Positions 1 through 5,665 of a stretch of 14,822 bases of DNA are shown here, piece after piece. A model generated the notes under the pieces. That model saw nothing but the letters and a program-made list of their open reading frames with translations, was not told the origin of the DNA and did not search any database. The stretch's first letter is position 1, and every line of letters starts with the position of its first letter. This DNA comes from Candidatus Heimdallarchaeota archaeon (GTDB lineage: Archaea > Asgardarchaeota > Heimdallarchaeia > Heimdallarchaeales > Heimdallarchaeaceae): NCBI GenBank assembly GCA_030668825.1, contig DAOVET010000062.1:1-14822 (forward strand), given 5' to 3'. A program made the translations under genes and the position numbers.

Positions 1-1447
1 CGATGGTGCAACTATCCTTAAGGAAATAGAAGTAAGTCATCCAGCTGCCAAATTTGTTATTGATCTAGCTAAAACCCAAGATCAAGAAACAGGCGATGGT
101 ACAACCACTGTTGTAGTTATTGCTGGTGAATTACTCAAACAAGCTGAAGAATTATTAGATTTGGATATTCATCCTACTTCTATTATTGAAGGTTATAGAT
201 TATCTCGTTTTCAAGCTGATAAGATACTGGAAGAAATGGCAATTGATGTTGCTTTTGAAGATGATAAAATCCTAAGAGCTGTTGCTGATACTTCTATGTC
301 GTCTAAAATAGTTAGCGGAGAGAAGGGTCCCCTTTCAGAAATCGTTGTTAAAGCAGTAAAATCTGTTACTGAGGACATAGATGGGGAATTAGTAGCTGAT
401 ATTGATAATATTCAAATTCAGAAGAAAAAAGGTGGAAGCTTAGTTGATACTGAATTGATTGACGGCATTATTCTAGACAAAGAATTTGTACATGCAGATA
501 TGCCTAAGAAAATTGATGATGCAAAGATTCTGTTGTTAGACAAGGGTTTAGAACTAAGTAAAACTGAAATTGATGCCAAGATTAACATCACTAGTCCAGA
601 TCAAATCCAAGCATTTCTTGATAGTGAACATGAAATGTTAAAGGAAATGGCCGATAAAATCATTGCTTCGGGCGCTAATGTGGTTCTTTGTCAAAAAGAT
701 ATTGATAATATTATTCAACACTATCTAGCCAAGAAAGGAATTGGTGCAGTTAGAAGAATCAAGAAAAGTGATATGGAAAAACTAGCCAAAGCCACTGGTG
801 CGCAAATCACCACAAGTTTGGATGATCTTGAAGGCTACATTGGTAAAGCTCAGGTTGCTGAAGAAAAAGCTATTGCAGACGATAAGATGATTTTCATAAC
901 TGGTTGTGAGAATCCTAAAGCTGTTTCTATCATCATTAGAGGGGGAACAGAAATGATTGTAGATGAAGCTGAAAGAGCAATTCATGATGCTTTATGTGTT
1001 GTTCGTCAGGTTATTCATGACAAGAAAGTTGTTCCAGGTGGTGGAGCTCCAGAATTAAGGATTAGCCATAAACTTGGTGATTTCGCAATGGGTCATACCA
1101 GTAAAGTTCAATTAGCAATCGAAAAGTTTGCCAAAGCAATGGAAATTATTCCAAGAACATTAGCAGAAAATGCTGGATTGGATCCAATAGATGTTCTTTC
1201 TGAACTGCACGTTCAACACGCTAAAGATGGACATGGATATGGTGTGAATCCTTTCAAATCCAAAGTTGATGAAATGATCAAACTTAATGTCTTTGAACCA
1301 ATTTCAGTTAAGAAACAAGCAATCAATAGTGCTGCTGAAGCTGCGGAAATGATTCTCCGAATAGATGATGTCATCGCTGCTAAAGAATTATCAGGTGGTC
1401 CAGCACCTCCAGGTGGTCCTGGTGGTGGAATGGACGAGGATTATTAA
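1..1447 (+). CDS. ths: Thermosome (group II chaperonin) subunit, 5'-truncated by the window edge
   Basis: The frame is open from nt 2 (DGATILKEIEVSHPAAK...QDQETGDGTTTVVV), so the ORF-track start at 161 is not the real start. Contains GDGTTT, IIRGG, ERAIHDA, VPGGGAPE, IPRTLAENAGLD and ILRIDD, plus a Gly/Pro-rich C-terminal tail. Confidence 0.98.
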   Translation, partial: DGATILKEIEVSHPAAKFVIDLAKTQDQETGDGTTTVVVIAGELLKQAEELLDLDIHPTSIIEGYRLSRFQADKILEEMAIDVAFEDDKILRAVADTSMSSKIVSGEKGPLSEIVVKAVKSVTEDIDGELVADIDNIQIQKKKGGSLVDTELIDGIILDKEFVHADMPKKIDDAKILLLDKGLELSKTEIDAKINITSPDQIQAFLDSEHEMLKEMADKIIASGANVVLCQKDIDNIIQHYLAKKGIGAVRRIKKSDMEKLAKATGAQITTSLDDLEGYIGKAQVAEEKAIADDKMIFITGCENPKAVSIIIRGGTEMIVDEAERAIHDALCVVRQVIHDKKVVPGGGAPELRISHKLGDFAMGHTSKVQLAIEKFAKAMEIIPRTLAENAGLDPIDVLSELHVQHAKDGHGYGVNPFKSKVDEMIKLNVFEPISVKKQAINSAAEAAEMILRIDDVIAAKELSGGPAPPGGPGGGMDEDY

Positions 1448-1836: not shown

Positions 1837-3027
1837 TTATGATGATTTTACTCTTTCAGCAACTGCTTTACCTAGTTGTTTAGCTTGTTCTAAAACTTCA
1901 TCTGTAGGAGAACCTTTAAACTCTAGCAGAGGTTCAACAATTTCCCAATCTAATTCTTTCACCTGATCAGCGGCTTGTTTTAGAGCTCTACCACTCCACA
2001 TATAAGAACCAAAAAAACCAACAATTCTTTCTTTTAGGTCTTTTCTCTTTACGAGGTGCAGATAATATGAAGCATTTAGAAATGGACCACCATCATATGT
2101 TGGAAATCCTAAAATAACTCCTTTGTACTTCCAAGTCTCTTTTATCAAATAACTGAGATGGTCATTAGAGAAATTCAAAACTTTAACGGGAAGACCAGCT
2201 TCTTTAATTCCTTCAACCACATGATTTACAACTTTCGCTGTGTTTCCATACATTGAGCCCCATATAACTACAACACCTGGTATTGCCATCCTATCAGAAA
2301 GATGTATGTACAAATCAATGATTCTTTGAGGATTTTTTCGCCATATAAGTCCATGAGCAGGAGCAATAATTTTGATATCTAATCCTGCTAACTTCTCCAT
2401 TGCCTTCTTGACATACTTAACATATTTTGCTACAATGTTACTGAAATAGCGGATAGTTTCTTCATAGTAAATGTCGGGATCACACTCATCATCAAATAAA
2501 CCAAAATCCAGAGCTTTGTATGATCCAAATGCATCACATGAAAACAGAATTTTATCTTTAGCATCATAAGTAATCATTGTTTCAGGCCAATGAACCAAAG
2601 GATCCATATAGAAAACTAGTTCTCGACCCCCCAAATCCAGTTTTTCACCTTCTTCAACAACATGAATATTTTCAGTTATTCCGTAAAGACTATCGAGCAT
2701 TCCTTCAGCTTTTTTAGAACAGTAAATTGTTGCATTTGGGACTTTTTCTAGAAGACGAGGTAAAGAGCTGCTATGATCGGGTTCAATGTGATTTAGAACA
2801 ATATAATCTATATCAAAAGAGGTAACTTCTTCCACCTTTTTTAGAAATTCATCAATAAAGGGTATTTTTACTGTTTCAATTAGAGCTGTTTTTTCCCCTT
2901 TAACGATGTAGCTGTTGTAACTTACTCCTTCAGGAATAGGCCAAAGCCCTTCAAATAATTTTGTTAAATGATCATTTACACCAACATAATACACATCAGG
3001 AACTACTTCTTTCATTTTTATCAACAT
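1837..3027 (-). CDS. fprA: Flavodiiron protein (FprA / A-type flavoprotein, O2/NO reductase family)
   Basis: Metallo-beta-lactamase diiron ligands HIEPDH, HWPE, SCDAFG and PAHG. C-terminal flavodoxin motifs SMYGNT, FPTY and FGSYMWSG. The start is probably ATG 3027 or 3015 rather than GTG 3090. Confidence 0.95.
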   Translation of the reverse strand: MLIKMKEVVPDVYYVGVNDHLTKLFEGLWPIPEGVSYNSYIVKGEKTALIETVKIPFIDEFLKKVEEVTSFDIDYIVLNHIEPDHSSSLPRLLEKVPNATIYCSKKAEGMLDSLYGITENIHVVEEGEKLDLGGRELVFYMDPLVHWPETMITYDAKDKILFSCDAFGSYKALDFGLFDDECDPDIYYEETIRYFSNIVAKYVKYVKKAMEKLAGLDIKIIAPAHGLIWRKNPQRIIDLYIHLSDRMAIPGVVVIWGSMYGNTAKVVNHVVEGIKEAGLPVKVLNFSNDHLSYLIKETWKYKGVILGFPTYDGGPFLNASYYLHLVKRKDLKERIVGFFGSYMWSGRALKQAADQVKELDWEIVEPLLEFKGSPTDEVLEQAKQLGKAVAERVKSS

Positions 3028-3201
3028 TTGTGGTTTAATTCTGATTAATTCAAAGTCTCTGTTTAGAGGTTTAACCTCAAAATCAATCACTATAAACTCA
3101 AGGGTTGAATTTAAAAAATTTTAGGTTTTTTCAAACATTTTAAAAACACTCTTCTAACCAAAATTCTTAACTAGTTTAACAAAATAGTATCTTTGTATAA
3201 A

Positions 3202-4149
3202 ATGGAACTCAAAGGGATAGATAAACAAATTCTCCAGAAGTTAAAAGAGTCAAAACTCAATTTGGAAAATATTGCTGTTTCAACTTCTAACGAGTTGATT
3301 AGAAAGGTTGAAATTAGTAAGAAAGATGCGATAAAAGTAATAGAAGCTGCACAAAACAAACTAGGAATCCAACCAGTTACAGCTTTACAGTTTCTAGAGG
3401 CAGAAGGTAAAAGGGGTAAAATCACCACTTCATCCTCAGAATTCGATGGAATACTAGGTGGAGGGATCTGGACACAAGAACTGACTGAAATTGCAGGTGG
3501 ATTTGGTTCAGGTAAAACTCAACTATGTTTTCAGCTATGTATCAATGTTCAACTTCCTTTTGATGAAGGAGGATTAGAAGGAAATGCATTCTATATTGAT
3601 ACTGAGAGAACTTTTTCTCCGAAAAGAATTGTCGAGATGGCAACTTATAGAGAATTGGAAGTAGAGAAAATCCTTGAAAATATCTATATAAATTCTGCAC
3701 TTAATACACATCATCTTTTTAGTATAGTTGATACTCTTGATGAGATAATTCAAAAAAAGAACATTAAACTGCTTATAGTTGATTCTTTTGCTTCCCATTT
3801 TAGATCTGAATATATAGGTAAAGAGAGATTAGTTGAGAGACAACAAAGAATTATGCAAATCGCAGAAAAACTGATTGCATTAGCAGTAAAACATGATCTT
3901 GCTGTTGTAGTAACTAATCAAATTATGGCAAATGTTGAAGAGTTTCTTTTTGGAAGTCCTGAAGAACCAGCTCTAGGTTTTGCATGGGCTCATAGACCTC
4001 AACAAAGAATATTTTTGAGAAAATCAAGGGGAAGCTCAAGAATAGCAAGATTATTTGATAGTTCCAGAATGCCAGAAAGAGAGGCATTATTCTATGTCAC
4101 AGAAAGTGGATTAACTGACTCACCATTTTCTTCAGATTTCTATTCGTAA
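3202..4149 (+). CDS. RadA/Rad51-family recombinase paralog (N-terminal HhH domain plus RecA core)
   Basis: Walker A GGFGSGKTQ, YIDTE, Walker B LLIVDS, FRSEY, VVTNQ and LRKSRG. The FxxA and L2-adjacent motifs are divergent, so I do not call it canonical radA. ATG at 3202 is preferred to TTG at 3193. Confidence 0.93.
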   Translation: MELKGIDKQILQKLKESKLNLENIAVSTSNELIRKVEISKKDAIKVIEAAQNKLGIQPVTALQFLEAEGKRGKITTSSSEFDGILGGGIWTQELTEIAGGFGSGKTQLCFQLCINVQLPFDEGGLEGNAFYIDTERTFSPKRIVEMATYRELEVEKILENIYINSALNTHHLFSIVDTLDEIIQKKNIKLLIVDSFASHFRSEYIGKERLVERQQRIMQIAEKLIALAVKHDLAVVVTNQIMANVEEFLFGSPEEPALGFAWAHRPQQRIFLRKSRGSSRIARLFDSSRMPEREALFYVTESGLTDSPFSSDFYS

Positions 4150-4215
4150 ACAGTATTAAAAAACAATGAATACAGCAACAAGATGTTAAGATAGAATTAG
4201 AAGTAGGGGTGGGAT

Positions 4216-4518
4216 TTAGCTACTTTCTGTAGCCTTAGCTGAGGTTGCTGAATATACTTTAGTTCTTCTTGAAGCAACTATTAGTTCAATAATTTTGTTT
4301 TCTTCAGCTTCACGCAAGAATTTCTTTGCTGTGCTTACTCTGATATTGAATTTATCAGACAAATAAGCAGGAGTAATCCCTTTAGCTCTTCGAATCTCTG
4401 CATCTATTTTCTTCTTTGTCTCTTCATCAGGAGTAAGATCACGAATTGTGGGGATGAATTCCACTACGAGACCAAATTTTTTCTTCTTTCTGATTACTTT
4501 TCTTTCTCGTGAAGACAT
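4216..4518 (-). CDS. rps25e: 30S ribosomal protein S25e (eS25)
   Basis: 100 aa with a basic N-terminus and winged-helix signature ITPAYLSDKFNIRVSTAKKFLREAEENKII...SRRTKVY. Confidence 0.92.
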   Translation of the reverse strand: MSSRERKVIRKKKKFGLVVEFIPTIRDLTPDEETKKKIDAEIRRAKGITPAYLSDKFNIRVSTAKKFLREAEENKIIELIVASRRTKVYSATSAKATESS

Positions 4519-4641
4519 TTATCTCGTTTTTGCGTTTATGTGCTGACTTTTAAGTTATTCGATTGAATTGTTTTTGTGGTCTGCATATCGAAGAGAGAAT
4601 ACTGAAACATTCCCCGAAGATTCTTTTCATTAACCACAACT

Positions 4642-4661
4642 TTGATAATATTCTCTATCAA
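4642..4661. promoter_or_regulatory. Inverted repeat TTGATA-N8-TATCAA over the likely promoter of the 4670 gene; putative operator
   Basis: Perfect 6-bp arms, extendable with AAC/GTT and one bulge, ending 8 nt before the ATG at 4670. Confidence 0.4.
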
Positions 4662-4669
4662 GTTTTCTT

Positions 4670-5665
4670 ATGGATAAGCTGGAAATCCTTCTACAAACTT
4701 TCAAAGGACTAAATGATGAATATCCTCTTTTCAGTCTATGGAAACATTTTCCGAATATTGACAGAAATCCTTACCAACTTGCTGAAACTCATGTAGAATT
4801 CTATAATAAGCACAAATTCGACTTAATGAAAATATCTCCTCATGGTAGGTTTCCTGTTGTTGATTATGGATGTGTTATAGCAAAGGATTATGATCCCATT
4901 ACAGGAAGTACAAGCTGTGAGAGCTGTTGTATCGCTACAGTTGATGACTGGGAATCATTAGAACCCATAGATGTTGGAGAAGGGGAACTGGGTAAGCAAC
5001 TAAAAACTGTTGAGCTAATCAGCAAGGATTTAGAGAGTTTACCAAAAATGATGACTTTGTTTTCACCCTTAATGGTTGCTTCAAAAATGGATTGTGAGTT
5101 AGTTTCAAACATACGACAAAAACCAAACACAATAAGAGAATCTCTATTTACAATAACCGAGGATATTATTGAATTTGCGAATGCATCAATTGATGCAGGT
5201 GCAGAAGGGATTTTTCTAGCTTCTCAACACTTTAGAAAAACCGATTTAACATGGGAAGAAGTGCTAAAGTTTGAAATACCTTTTATAAAGAAATTATTAT
5301 CAAAAATAAGGAGTAAGGTTGAGTTCATTGTAATGCACGTCCATGGACAGGATATACGTTTCAAAGAAGCAGCTGAATTGATGGAAGTTGATGCCTTAAA
5401 TTGGCATGACAGATTGACATGGCCTGGAATAGAGGAAGCAGCAGACATATTTCCAAAAGGATTACTTGCCGGTATTGATGAAACGAGAACTTTAGTTGAT
5501 GGAAAACCTGACGACATAAAGAATAATATCCTTGATGCACTGAAAAAATCAACAGAAAATGATAATAGAGTCATTATTGCGCCAGGATGTGTAATTCCCA
5601 TAACTGCTCCAGATGAAAATATAGAAATTATTTCCCAAACAGTTAGAAAAACTAGAAAAGGATAG
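4670..5665 (+). CDS. Uroporphyrinogen decarboxylase / MtaA-CmuA superfamily (URO-D-like TIM barrel) protein
   Basis: WKHFP near the N-terminus, TLFSPL, AGAEGIFLA, MHVHG, LNW, LAGID and IIAPGCVIP...PDENI. It lacks the HemE RQAGR motif, so I do not call it hemE. Confidence 0.85.
   Translation: MDKLEILLQTFKGLNDEYPLFSLWKHFPNIDRNPYQLAETHVEFYNKHKFDLMKISPHGRFPVVDYGCVIAKDYDPITGSTSCESCCIATVDDWESLEPIDVGEGELGKQLKTVELISKDLESLPKMMTLFSPLMVASKMDCELVSNIRQKPNTIRESLFTITEDIIEFANASIDAGAEGIFLASQHFRKTDLTWEEVLKFEIPFIKKLLSKIRSKVEFIVMHVHGQDIRFKEAAELMEVDALNWHDRLTWPGIEEAADIFPKGLLAGIDETRTLVDGKPDDIKNNILDALKKSTENDNRVIIAPGCVIPITAPDENIEIISQTVRKTRKG

What the first reader, a model, noticed from the sequence alone, without database searches (positions are those of the whole stretch)
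3202..4149. Archaeal RadA homolog with the signature motifs of eukaryotic RAD51 paralogs (RAD51B/C/D/XRCC3)
Seen: after loop L2 the protein reads EPALGFAWAHRPQQR (PALG..W at 3967-3987), and the polymerisation FxxA position reads PVTA (3373-3384) followed by LQFLEAE. Known, recalled from memory: true recombinases RadA/RAD51/DMC1 have P(I/V)GG(H/N)I(L/I)AH and F-x-x-A at these positions. The eukaryotic mediator paralogs instead have (P/A)ALGxxW (RAD51C PALGESW, RAD51D PALGRSW, XRCC3 PALGITW, RAD51B AALGNTW) and generally lack the FxxA Phe. Unlike RadB/aRadC, this protein keeps the N-terminal HhH domain. It also retains RadA-like FRSEYxG..L.ERQQ, LRKSRG and the Asp of DS(P/S). Inference: a mosaic intermediate, possibly an Asgard relative of the ancestor of the eukaryotic RAD51-paralog mediators, acting as a filament cap or loader rather than polymerising.
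Basis: partly seen in the sequence, partly recalled or inferred. Interest (0 to 1): 0.85.

Follow-up and report, generated by a model that had tools for sequence, protein, structure and literature searches.

The report
Heimdall RadA paralogue resembling RAD51 paralogues
This gene encodes a conserved extra copy of the archaeal DNA-recombination protein RadA, found in nearly all Heimdall-group Asgard archaea searched, whose altered contact motifs resemble the human RAD51 helper proteins RAD51C, RAD51D and XRCC3, hinting that such helpers may predate eukaryotes.

Summary
Window 3202-4149 (+) encodes a 315-aa RadA-family protein. It has Pro (PVTA, 3373-3384) where RadA/RAD51 have the Phe of FxxA, and PALGFAWAHRP (3967-3999) where they have P(I/V)GG(H/N)IxAH. 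The ATPase motifs, L1, L2 and the N-terminal domain are intact.

This is not an isolated oddity. 119 of the 120 best database homologues carry PALGxAWxHRP. The motif occurs once per genome in 75 of 83 genomes of the window's class and in 3 of 317 other Asgard genomes. The same genome holds a canonical radA (FRNA, PIGGHIVAH), two further full-length paralogues and a RadB-like gene.

The family is a strongly supported separate clade (100/99). An origin by duplication of the Heimdall canonical RadA is not rejected (AU p 0.10).

Overall it is still most similar to RadA/RAD51. Its profile nevertheless scores about 55-65 bits higher on RAD51C and XRCC3 than the canonical Heimdall RadA profile does. 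Short profiles of its two altered motifs retrieve only RAD51D and RAD51C among RecA-family chains in the PDB.

A phylogeny with eukaryotic RAD51 paralogues could not be built here. My reading is a specialised partner of RadA filaments, possibly homologous to the RAD51 paralogues. This reading is partly supported.

The parts
3202..4149 (+). Whole gene of the RadA paralogue (315 codons plus stop), protein P0001
   Evidence: Pfam Rad51 223.4 bits. NCBIfam NF003301 RadA 336 bits (cut-off 259), TIGR02236 312.7 bits (below cut-off 361.15).
3202..3366 (+). N-terminal helical (HhH-type) domain, residues 1-55
   Evidence: Alignments to RadA/RAD51 N-terminal domains. AF2 helices 8-16, 21-25, 29-36 and 40-54. 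Pfam HHH_5 is sub-threshold.
3373..3384 (+). Remodelled polymerisation motif PVTA at the FxxA position. Family pattern: Pro, then a hydrophobic residue, then Ser/Thr, then Ala
   Evidence: for coordinates. Pro in 111 of 120, V/I/L/F/M at +1 in 112 of 120, S/T in 114 of 120, Ala in 120 of 120. Canonical paralogues have Phe.
3496..3522 (+). Walker A, GGFGSGKTQ
   Evidence: G99, G104, K105 and Q107 are invariant in A1.
3598..3606 (+). DTE (position of the catalytic Glu in RadA; that role is from general knowledge of the family)
   Evidence: D133 120/120, T134 118/120, E135 120/120.
3769..3786 (+). Walker B strand, LLIVDS
   Evidence: D194 and S195 invariant.
3799..3846 (+). L1 region, FRSEYIGKERLVERQQ
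   Evidence: The family consensus keeps HFR.EY.G...Lv.RQQ.
3913..3966 (+). TNQ plus L2 loop (residues 238-255)
   Evidence: T238, N239 and Q240 invariant. Low pLDDT at 243-252, as expected of a flexible loop.
3967..3999 (+). Family signature PALGFAWAHRP, replacing P(I/V)GG(H/N)IxAH(S/A)
   Evidence: 119 of 120. (78 of 400 genomes, single copy). (best PDB matches are RAD51D).
4015..4032 (+). LRKSRG strand shared with RadA/RAD51

Best explanation
The gene encodes a member of a conserved, single-copy RadA paralogue family of Heimdallarchaeia, here called the PALG family. It coexists with a canonical RadA. It keeps everything needed to bind ATP and single-stranded DNA inside a RecA-type assembly: Walker A/B, the DTE Glu, TNQ, the His after L2, L1 and L2. 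What has changed is two elements that sit at protomer-protomer contacts. The FxxA 'ball' has become Pro-hydrophobic-Ser/Thr-Ala, and the helix after L2 has become PALGxAWxHRP. I infer that it does not build ordinary RadA homofilaments. It more likely joins canonical RadA assemblies through a directional, remodelled interface, acting as an ATP-dependent filament end-binder, nucleator or stabiliser. That is the way XRCC3-RAD51C and RAD51D-XRCC2 act on RAD51. It may share ancestry with those eukaryotic paralogues. Shown: the anatomy, conservation, distribution, coexistence with radA, and the excess similarity to RAD51C/XRCC3/RAD51D. Inferred: binding to RadA, capping or mediator activity, and homology with the eukaryotic paralogues.
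For: 1) Family-wide signature. 119 of the 120 best homologues carry PALGxAWxHRP; the other (P0038) is a 229-aa fragment in which the motif was not found. Pro replaces the FxxA Phe in 111 of 120, and the motif's Ala is kept in 120 of 120.
2) Catalytic and DNA-binding motifs are invariant or nearly so.
3) Distribution. The motif occurs once per genome in 75 of 83 class genomes and in 3 of 317 other Asgard genomes, with 0 hits for the reversed control. Among 46 class genomes at least 85% complete, the paralogue was found in 44 and a canonical RadA in 46. Single-contig genomes G026 and G074 carry both on one chromosome.
4) All 30 canonical Heimdall RadA examined keep FxxA, GE(F/Y)R(T/S)GK(T/S)Q and P(I/V)GG(H/N)I(V/L)AH.
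5) Constraint is similar to that on canonical RadA. Identity to the G000 copy in the same genomes, canonical versus PALG: 95/95 (G115), 85/86 (G080), 70/60 (G026), 49/46 (G123).
6) Separate clade with UFBoot 100 / SH-aLRT 99 and stem length 0.48.
7) Excess similarity to the eukaryotic paralogues. Single sequences, P0001 versus canonical P0271: RAD51C 120.1 vs 81.5 bits, Alvinella XRCC3 122.9 vs 101.4, although Pfu RadA is 241.9 vs 356.7. The other two paralogues score lower still on RAD51C (59.9 and 72.5). Profiles of 20 sequences each, PALG versus canonical: RAD51C 181.6 vs 117.1, core-only Alvinella RAD51C 179.0 vs 116.4, Alvinella XRCC3 180.5 vs 125.4, RAD51B 154.4 vs 131.7, human XRCC3 150.2 vs not among the 60 rows shown (lowest shown 114.4). 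In the opposite direction, Pfu RadA is 346.7 vs 475.4 and human RAD51 304.7 vs 380.6.
8) A 24-column profile of the PALG motif searched against 177,635 PDB sequences returned 4 hits at E<=10. Three are human RAD51D (KPALGRSWSFVPSTRILL, E 0.16-0.17). None is RadA or RAD51. A 22-column linker profile returned 2 hits, both human RAD51C (TALELLEQEHT, E 0.6-0.7).
9) Longo et al. 2023 (PMC10366140, passages read): RAD51C's polymerisation motif lacks the Phe, XRCC3's motif Ala (A65) is needed to bind RAD51C, and CX3 caps the 5' end of RAD51 filaments.
10) Complex prediction of P0271(85-403) with P0001 gave weak support: score 0.41, best of 3 controls 0.00. The mark was reached by 58 of 80 solved complexes and 2 of 110 mismatched pairs, but scores of 0.60 or under by only 7 of those 80 and by both mismatches that passed. 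The runs agree in at least 73% of contacts and the partner's pLDDT is at least 76. Like complexes are solved, so the pass may come from memory.
Against: Overall similarity is much higher to RadA/RAD51/DMC1 (248, 189 and 201 bits) than to any RAD51 paralogue (at most 123 bits). The best structural matches are RAD51, DMC1 and RadA (Z 34-38). L1, L2 and all ATPase motifs are conserved as in a true recombinase, unlike what is generally said of the eukaryotic paralogues (general knowledge, not tested here). The linker motif is remodelled rather than lost, with its Ala invariant, so it may still polymerise with itself. Phmmer with the L2 region or the N-terminal region alone found no RAD51 paralogue at E<=10. 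The E-values of the two short-profile hits are not significant on their own. The AU test does not reject a Heimdall-internal origin from canonical RadA (p 0.104), so the motif likeness to the RAD51 paralogues could be convergence. Part of the profile contrast could come from stronger penalties in the canonical profile, although the single-sequence searches point the same way. No partner gene lies beside it in the 30 loci examined. The complex prediction is only weak support.
Confidence: 0.5

Rival explanations
1. It is a second, self-sufficient strand-exchange recombinase. It forms its own filaments through a co-evolved, altered polymerisation interface (hydrophobic-Ser/Thr-Ala 'ball', remodelled post-L2 helix). 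This keeps it from mixing with canonical RadA, a division of labour like RAD51 versus DMC1.
For: Walker A/B, DTE, TNQ, the His, L1 and L2 are all conserved family-wide. The motif Ala is invariant (120/120) and the residue after Pro is hydrophobic in 112/120. The evolutionary rate is similar to canonical RadA. The protein passes the NF003301 RadA cut-off. The best structural matches are filament-forming RAD51/DMC1/RadA over residues 1-309.
Against: The Phe anchor is absent in the aligned position in 120 of 120. In solved RadA/RAD51 and in 30 of 30 canonical Heimdall RadA it is present. The two altered elements resemble RAD51D and RAD51C, which are not self-polymerising recombinases (Longo et al.). 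It scores below the stricter TIGR02236 cut-off.
Confidence: 0.3
2. It is a Heimdall-lineage duplicate of canonical RadA that diverged quickly on its stem. Its likeness to eukaryotic RAD51 paralogues is convergence or chance, and its role may be unrelated to RadA filament control.
For: The AU test does not reject PALG plus Heimdall canonical RadA as one clade (lnL difference 21.7, p 0.104). The family is almost confined to one class. The short-profile hits have E 0.16-0.7. The regional phmmer searches found no paralogue.
Against: The excess score on RAD51C is about 63 bits even for the core-only construct (179.0 vs 116.4). That is more than the roughly 14 and 9 bits seen for the two motifs. Two other divergent paralogues of the same genome show no such excess. 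In the free tree the family is not sister to the Heimdall canonical clade.
Confidence: 0.2

Closest known systems
Canonical archaeal RadA (e.g. Sulfolobus RadA 2bke, Pyrococcus RadA 1pzn; own-genome copy P0271 on contig C135)
   Same: Same architecture (N-terminal helical domain, linker, RecA core) and the same ATPase, L1 and L2 motifs. 248 and 242 bits to the solved proteins. 39% identity to P0271. Passes the NF003301 cut-off.
   Different: Pro instead of the FxxA Phe. PALGxAWxHRP instead of P(I/V)GG(H/N)IxAH. HL instead of the HQ after NS(D/H) in 107 of 120. Below the TIGR02236 cut-off. Separate clade at 100/99.
Eukaryotic RAD51 paralogues RAD51C, XRCC3 and RAD51D (CX3 and DX2 complexes)
   Same: No Phe in the polymerisation motif, as in RAD51C (Longo et al.). 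PALG..W...P..R(I/L)LL is shared with human RAD51D. TA.ELLE.E of the linker is shared with human RAD51C. Scores on RAD51C and XRCC3 are higher than for canonical RadA. It coexists with a canonical recombinase.
   Different: It is still about twice as similar to RadA/RAD51 as to any paralogue. L1 and L2 are conserved. It evolves as slowly as RadA. No heterodimer partner was identified. Phylogenetic relationship not tested.
Asgard 'RadA paralogue' clade of Matsuo et al. 2025 (Genome Biol Evol, PMC12722695, Fig. 1 legend and Results passages read)
   Same: They describe a clade of RadA paralogues in Heimdall-, Njord- and Gerdarchaea (less robustly Lokiarchaea), distinct from the other RadA of the same genomes. 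That distribution and status fit the family found here.
   Different: Identity of the two clades is my inference; their sequences and supplements were not seen. In the text read, the paper gives no motifs and no function. The terms 'Rad51 paralog' and 'Rad51B' occur 0 times in it.
Archaeal RadB and the RadB-like gene of this genome (P0274)
   Same: RecA-fold accessory proteins that coexist with RadA.
   Different: RadB has no N-terminal domain (general knowledge). P0001 has one and scores 101.4 on TIGR02237 against a cut-off of 172.4. The genome has a separate 215-aa RadB-like gene.

Membership tests
RadA/Rad51 recombinase family (Pfam PF08423; NCBIfam NF003301 / TIGR02236) | Rad51-type RecA core above the curated cut-offs | tested here: met
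   PF08423 223.4 bits (cut-off 22), NF003301 336 bits (cut-off 259). The stricter TIGR02236 is not reached (312.7 against 361.15).
RadA/Rad51 recombinase family | N-terminal helical (HhH) domain | tested here: met
   Alignments start at residue 2. The AF2 model has confident N-terminal helices. Structural alignment spans 1-309. Pfam HHH_5 alone is sub-threshold.
RadA/Rad51 recombinase family | Walker A, Walker B, DTE Glu, TNQ, L1 and L2 | tested here: met
RadA/Rad51 recombinase family | FxxA polymerisation motif with Phe | tested here: not met
   Pro58 aligns with the Phe. The family has Pro in 111/120 and Phe in 0/120 at that column. Canonical Heimdall RadA have it in 30/30.
RadA/Rad51 recombinase family | P(I/V)GG(H/N)I(L/I/V)AH after L2 | tested here: not met
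   PALGFAWAH instead; only Pro, the second Gly, Ala and His are kept.
RadA/Rad51 recombinase family | Forms filaments and exchanges strands | not testable with these tools
   Needs biochemistry.
Eukaryotic RAD51 paralogues (RAD51B/C/D, XRCC2/3) | (P/A)ALGxxW after L2 | tested here: met
The match to human RAD51D was displayed.
Eukaryotic RAD51 paralogues | Polymerisation motif without the RAD51-type Phe | tested here: met
   P0001. RAD51C: Longo et al.. Linker match to RAD51C.
Eukaryotic RAD51 paralogues | Groups with them rather than with RadA/RAD51/DMC1 in a phylogeny | not testable with these tools
Only score contrasts are available.
Eukaryotic RAD51 paralogues | More similar to paralogues than to the recombinases | tested here: not met
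   RadA 248 and RAD51 189 bits against RAD51C 120 and XRCC3 123 bits.
Eukaryotic RAD51 paralogues | Obligate hetero-oligomer that binds the recombinase filament | tested here: inconclusive
   Weak support only: 0.41 against best control 0.00. No adjacent partner gene.
RadB | Core-only protein above the TIGR02237 cut-off | tested here: not met
   101.4 bits against 172.4, and an N-terminal domain is present.

The most novel reading that the evidence does not exclude
The PALG family is the surviving archaeal sister, or a descendant of the ancestor, of the eukaryotic RAD51 paralogues (at least the RAD51C/XRCC3/RAD51D lineage). If so, the split between recombinase and mediator paralogues happened in Heimdall-related archaea before eukaryogenesis. 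Filament capping or loading by a RecA-fold paralogue with an N-terminal domain would then be an archaeal invention.
Probability: 0.3. Interest if true: 0.85.

Novelty: new variant of a known kind. Interest (0 to 1): 0.68.

Why it matters
The eukaryotic RAD51 paralogues are essential tumour suppressors, and their evolutionary origin is unsettled. Older work ties them to archaeal RadB (recalled, not read here). Recent Asgard studies looked only at RAD51 and DMC1.

This paralogue is slowly evolving, is found in nearly all Heimdall-class genomes searched, and still looks like RadA. It carries the paralogue-type linker and post-L2 signature, which gives a concrete candidate for the missing intermediate. 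It also offers a simpler system, one paralogue plus RadA, in which to study how a RecA-fold subunit without the Phe anchor controls a recombinase filament. The family is currently annotated simply as RadA (names), so genome surveys that count 'RadA' conflate it with the recombinase.

Tried and rejected
1) Fetching eukaryotic RAD51-paralogue sequences for a tree. A PDB chain id is not accepted as a sequence (error). The protein searches list only the best 120 or 150 hits, all of them PALG family or RadA/RAD51. No tree with RAD51B/C/D/XRCC2/3 was built.

2) Phmmer with the L2-to-C-terminal region and with residues 1-80. Only RadA/RAD51/DMC1 were hit, plus unrelated desmoplakin and a cytidylyltransferase. 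No RAD51 paralogue appeared at E<=10.

3) Literature search for the recalled motif strings PALGESW, PALGRSW, PALGITW and AALGNTW found 0 papers. Searches linking Asgard RadA to RAD51 paralogues found no paper making that link. Supplements are closed and were not seen; those of Matsuo et al. and of the Rad51/Dmc1 specialisation preprint (10.1101/2025.02.19.639135, passages read) may hold these sequences.

4) ESM Atlas: the nearest clusters are generic RadA/RAD51 and do not discriminate.

6) Expression: no RNA holder listed. Two runs labelled RNA-Seq are 'probably DNA' and hold only short contigs.

7) Neighbourhood: thermosome, flavodiiron protein, ribosomal protein S25e, URO-D-like and hydantoinase-like genes, with no repair genes. 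No second RecA-like gene within the 30 PALG loci. The S25e neighbour is found in 17 of the 30 loci (L037-L053), all from the window's own family f1.

8) AU test of PALG plus Heimdall canonical RadA as one clade: not rejected (p 0.104), so the depth of the duplication is open.

9) Structure comparison of the canonical model against the PALG model. The canonical model is poorer (pLDDT 70.3) and aligned over its core only, so the two lists are not comparable. For the PALG model, the best chain of entry 9q2a is chain A (residues 14-350, 33% identity, Z 34.1, rmsd 7.7, 294 aligned). By its residue range it may be RAD51C, but I did not verify the chain's identity.

10) Phe-pocket analysis from sequence. 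The pocket-equivalent columns 162-167 vary both within the family and among the canonical paralogues, so no conclusion was drawn.

11) Rows left out of the trees. Tree 1 used 22 of the 120 PALG hits and only representatives of 290-480 aa; intein-bearing and fragmentary ones were dropped. Tree 2 used 15 PALG rows, 11 of the 30 canonical loci, 36 representatives (6 of them RAD51-type) chosen for short branches, and P0272. It left out P0273 and P0274 as long branches.
Full report
THE GENE. Window 3202-4149 (+) is an open frame of 315 codons. It matches Pfam Rad51 (223.4 bits) and the NCBIfam RadA model NF003301 (336 bits, cut-off 259). It falls below the stricter RadA equivalog TIGR02236 (312.7 against 361.15). 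The best solved relatives are Sulfolobus RadA (248 bits) and Pyrococcus RadA (242). Next come yeast DMC1 (201) and human RAD51 (189). XRCC3 (123), RAD51C (120) and RAD51B (92) lie far lower. An AlphaFold2 model built on a 20-sequence family alignment is confident (pLDDT 87.4), apart from the L2 loop. It superposes over residues 1-309 on RAD51, DMC1 and RadA protomers (Z 34-38).

THE OBSERVATION. In HMMER alignments, Pro58 lies on the Phe of FxxA in Sulfolobus RadA and human RAD51, and ALGFAW lies on GGHILA / GGNIIA. Walker A (GGFGSGKTQ), DTE, Walker B, TNQ, the His after L2, L1 (FRSEY...ERQQ) and LRKSRG are retained.

IT IS A FAMILY, NOT AN ACCIDENT.
- All 120 best hits in the 5.8-billion-protein collection (46-99% identity) belong to one family. 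Of these, 119 carry PALG(F/Y/L/Q)AW(A/G)HRP. The other (P0038) is a 229-aa fragment in which the motif was not found.
- At the FxxA position the family has Pro in 111 of 120, followed by V/I/L/F/M in 112, Ser/Thr in 114 and Ala in 120 of 120. The few members without Pro read Q-F-S-A or L-I-T-A. The constant feature is therefore hydrophobic-Ser/Thr-Ala. The motif is remodelled, not decayed.
- ATPase and DNA-binding motifs are invariant or nearly so.
- Source names on the hits are mostly Heimdallarchaeota or Heimdallarchaeaceae. There are single hits labelled Thorarchaeota, Methanobacteriota and Zixibacteria, which I take to be labelling noise.

DISTRIBUTION.
- A degenerate DNA pattern for PALGxAWxHRP was scanned over 400 genomes of the window's phylum. 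It hit 78 genomes, exactly once each. The reversed control hit none.
- 75 of the 83 genomes of the window's class have it: f1 31/31 counting the window's genome, f2 8/12, f3 1/1, f4 3/3, f5 19/22, f6 11/12, f28 2/2. Only 3 of 317 genomes outside the class have it.
- Among 46 class genomes at least 85% complete, a full-length match at E<=1e-80 was found in 44, always single. Of the two misses, G193 does carry the motif. G188 does not, in what was assembled.

THE REST OF THE RADA SET. The window's own genome (2.76 Mb, 90.6% complete) has four full-length Rad51-family genes and a RadB-like gene.

| Contig | Protein | Length | Polymerisation motif | Walker A | Post-L2 motif | Note |
|---|---|---|---|---|---|---|
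| C135 | P0271 | 403 aa | FRNA | GEFRTGKTQ | PIGGHIVAH | Only one that passes both RadA equivalog cut-offs |
| C133 | P0272 | 455 aa | FINA | GPFRSGKSQ | AIGGNILGH | Two HhH-like modules |
| C1 | P0001 | 315 aa | PVTA | GGFGSGKTQ | PALGFAWAH | This gene |
| C5 | P0273 | 401 aa | FLSL | GAPQSGKTQ | PVGGFVLGH | Has an insertion |
| C100 | P0274 | 215 aa | – | – | – | RadB-like |

A canonical RadA was found in 46 of 46 class genomes searched. All 30 canonical copies extracted keep FxxA and P(I/V)GG(H/N)I(V/L)AH. In the single-contig genomes G026 and G074, the canonical, C133-type and PALG genes lie on one chromosome. The paralogue set is therefore not a binning artefact.

PHYLOGENY WITHOUT THE EUKARYOTIC PARALOGUES.
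- A careful IQ-TREE analysis (LG+C20+F+G4 PMSF, 63 rows, 319 columns) recovers the PALG family as a clade with UFBoot 100 / SH-aLRT 99 on a stem of 0.48 substitutions per site.
- It is separate from the Heimdall canonical clade (98/92) and from a eukaryotic RAD51 group. Two members of that group pass the RAD51 equivalog cut-off. The backbone is unresolved.
- An AU test does not reject the tree in which PALG and Heimdall canonical RadA are held together (lnL lower by 21.7, p 0.104).
- So the family does not nest inside canonical RadA in the free tree. A Heimdall-internal duplication followed by a burst of change on the stem nevertheless remains possible.
- After that stem the family evolves about as slowly as canonical RadA. 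Identities to the G000 copies, canonical/PALG: 95/95 in G115, 85/86 in G080, 70/60 in G026 and 49/46 in G123.

THE LINK TO THE EUKARYOTIC RAD51 PARALOGUES. I could not obtain their sequences as usable records, so I used the PDB sequence search as a fixed panel.

Single sequences, in bits:

| Target | P0001 (PALG) | P0271 (canonical) | P0272 | P0273 |
|---|---|---|---|---|
| Pyrococcus RadA | 242 | 357 | – | – |
| Human RAD51 | 189 | 276-278 | – | – |
| Human RAD51C | 120.1 | 81.5 | 59.9 | 72.5 |
| Alvinella XRCC3 | 122.9 | 101.4 | 54.7 | 76.9 |

P0001 is the more divergent from RadA and RAD51, yet it scores higher than the canonical copy on RAD51C and XRCC3. The two other divergent paralogues score lower, so divergence as such does not raise these scores.

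Profiles of 20 sequences each, drawn from the same class of genomes (mean column identity 58% for PALG and 52% for canonical), in bits:

| Target | PALG profile | Canonical profile |
|---|---|---|
| Pyrococcus RadA | 346.7 | 475.4 |
| Human RAD51 | 304.7 | 380.6 |
| Human RAD51C | 181.6 | 117.1 |
| Alvinella RAD51C, core-only construct | 179.0 | 116.4 |
| Alvinella XRCC3 | 180.5 | 125.4 |
| RAD51B | 154.4 | 131.7 |
| Human XRCC3 | 150.2 | Not among the 60 rows shown (lowest shown 114.4) |

I then searched the whole PDB with short profiles of the two altered elements.
- The 24-column PALG-motif profile returned four hits at E<=10. Three are human RAD51D (KPALGRSWSFVPSTRILL). This shares P-A-L-G, W, P and R-I-L-L with the family consensus. 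The fourth is an unrelated GST. No RadA or RAD51 was returned.
- The 22-column linker profile returned two hits, both human RAD51C (TALELLEQEHT at residues 86-96).
- Each E-value (0.16-0.7) is weak alone. What matters is that these elements pick RAD51 paralogues rather than the far more similar RadA and RAD51.
- The two motifs account for roughly 14 and 9 bits. The excess on the RAD51C core is about 63 bits, so the signal is not confined to them.

Caveats. Phmmer with the same regions of the single sequence found no paralogue. A sharper canonical profile may over-penalise divergent targets. Similarity contrasts are not a phylogeny.

HOW IT PROBABLY WORKS. Longo et al. 2023 (PMC10366140, passages read) report the following. 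RAD51-family subunits bind one another by docking the linker motif of one subunit on the core of the next. RAD51C's motif lacks the Phe and RAD51C lacks the Phe pocket. XRCC3's motif Ala65 is needed to bind RAD51C, while RAD51's Phe86 binds XRCC3. The result is a one-directional RAD51-XRCC3-RAD51C arrangement that caps the 5' end. RAD51C Gly264 sits on a helix at the XRCC3 interface, near the modelled ssDNA path.

The PALG protein has an invariant linker Ala with a shifted, smaller hydrophobic anchor. It has a remodelled helix after L2 that still ends in the conserved His. In RadA/RAD51 this His is thought to sense the neighbour's ATP (general knowledge of the family, not tested here).

I therefore infer a subunit that still sits in a RecA-type interface on ssDNA with ATP, but whose contacts are directional and not RadA-like. 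The likeliest role is a partner of RadA filaments, as an end-binder, nucleator or stabiliser. A complex prediction of the canonical RadA core with P0001 gave weak support only. The score was 0.41 against a best control of 0.00. Passes at 0.60 or under were reached by 7 of 80 solved complexes and by both mismatched pairs that passed. Like complexes are solved, so memory may explain the pass.

The main rival is a second self-polymerising recombinase with a private interface. The intact L1 and L2 and the slow rate favour it. No neighbouring gene points to a partner.

WHAT IS KNOWN.
- Matsuo et al. 2025 (PMC12722695; Results, Discussion and Fig. 1 legend read) report a clade of RadA paralogues in Heimdall-, Njord- and Gerdarchaea, distinct from the other RadA of the same genomes. 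This is probably the family described here, but they give no motifs and do not consider the RAD51 paralogues.
- The preprint 10.1101/2025.02.19.639135 (passages read) splits Asgard recombinases into 18 groups and drops four groups for lacking canonical motifs. The word 'paralog' does not occur in it.
- My searches found no paper linking an Asgard RadA paralogue to RAD51B/C/D/XRCC2/3. Supplements were closed.
- The existence of the clade is therefore in print. Its signature, its near-universality across the Heimdall class and its affinity to RAD51C/XRCC3/RAD51D appear not to be.

VERDICT. I rate it a new variant of a known kind (RadA paralogue), with a 0.3 chance that it is the archaeal relative of the eukaryotic RAD51 paralogues.

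Noticed in passing
L002:1486-2850 (-) = G000 contig C133, protein P0272: A 455-aa RadA paralogue with two HhH-like N-terminal modules (FINA, AIGGNILGH). It is sister to the eukaryotic RAD51 group in the careful tree (UFBoot 95 / SH-aLRT 91). Its branch is long (1.22), so long-branch attraction is possible. Similar matches occur across the class.
   Followed up: partly
L004:1153-2355 (+) = G000 contig C5, protein P0273: A fourth, very divergent full-length Rad51-family gene (FLSL instead of FxxA, GAPQSGKTQ, an insertion after LRR). It fails both RadA equivalog cut-offs. It scores about equally on RAD51 and RadA.
   Followed up: partly
L001:1-996 (+), just upstream of the canonical radA on contig C135: A 331-aa ORF that by eye looks like an IS200/IS605-type TnpB/OrfB transposon protein lies directly upstream of the canonical radA. 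No family search was run on it.
   Followed up: no
window 4216-4518 (-): A ribosomal protein S25e gene lies tail-to-tail with the paralogue. It is the neighbour in 17 of the 30 PALG loci examined (L037-L053), all from the window's own family f1.
   Followed up: yes
window 1837-3090 (-) and 2-1447 (+): A flavodiiron-type protein (ODP metallo-beta-lactamase fold plus flavodoxin) and a thermosome subunit lie upstream. They have no evident link to recombination.
   Followed up: no
window 2900-4700: Near-identical DNA is present in cold-seep and marine-sediment metagenomes of 10 coded studies. The organism therefore recurs in such sediments. Some of those runs may be the source of the assembly.
   Followed up: partly
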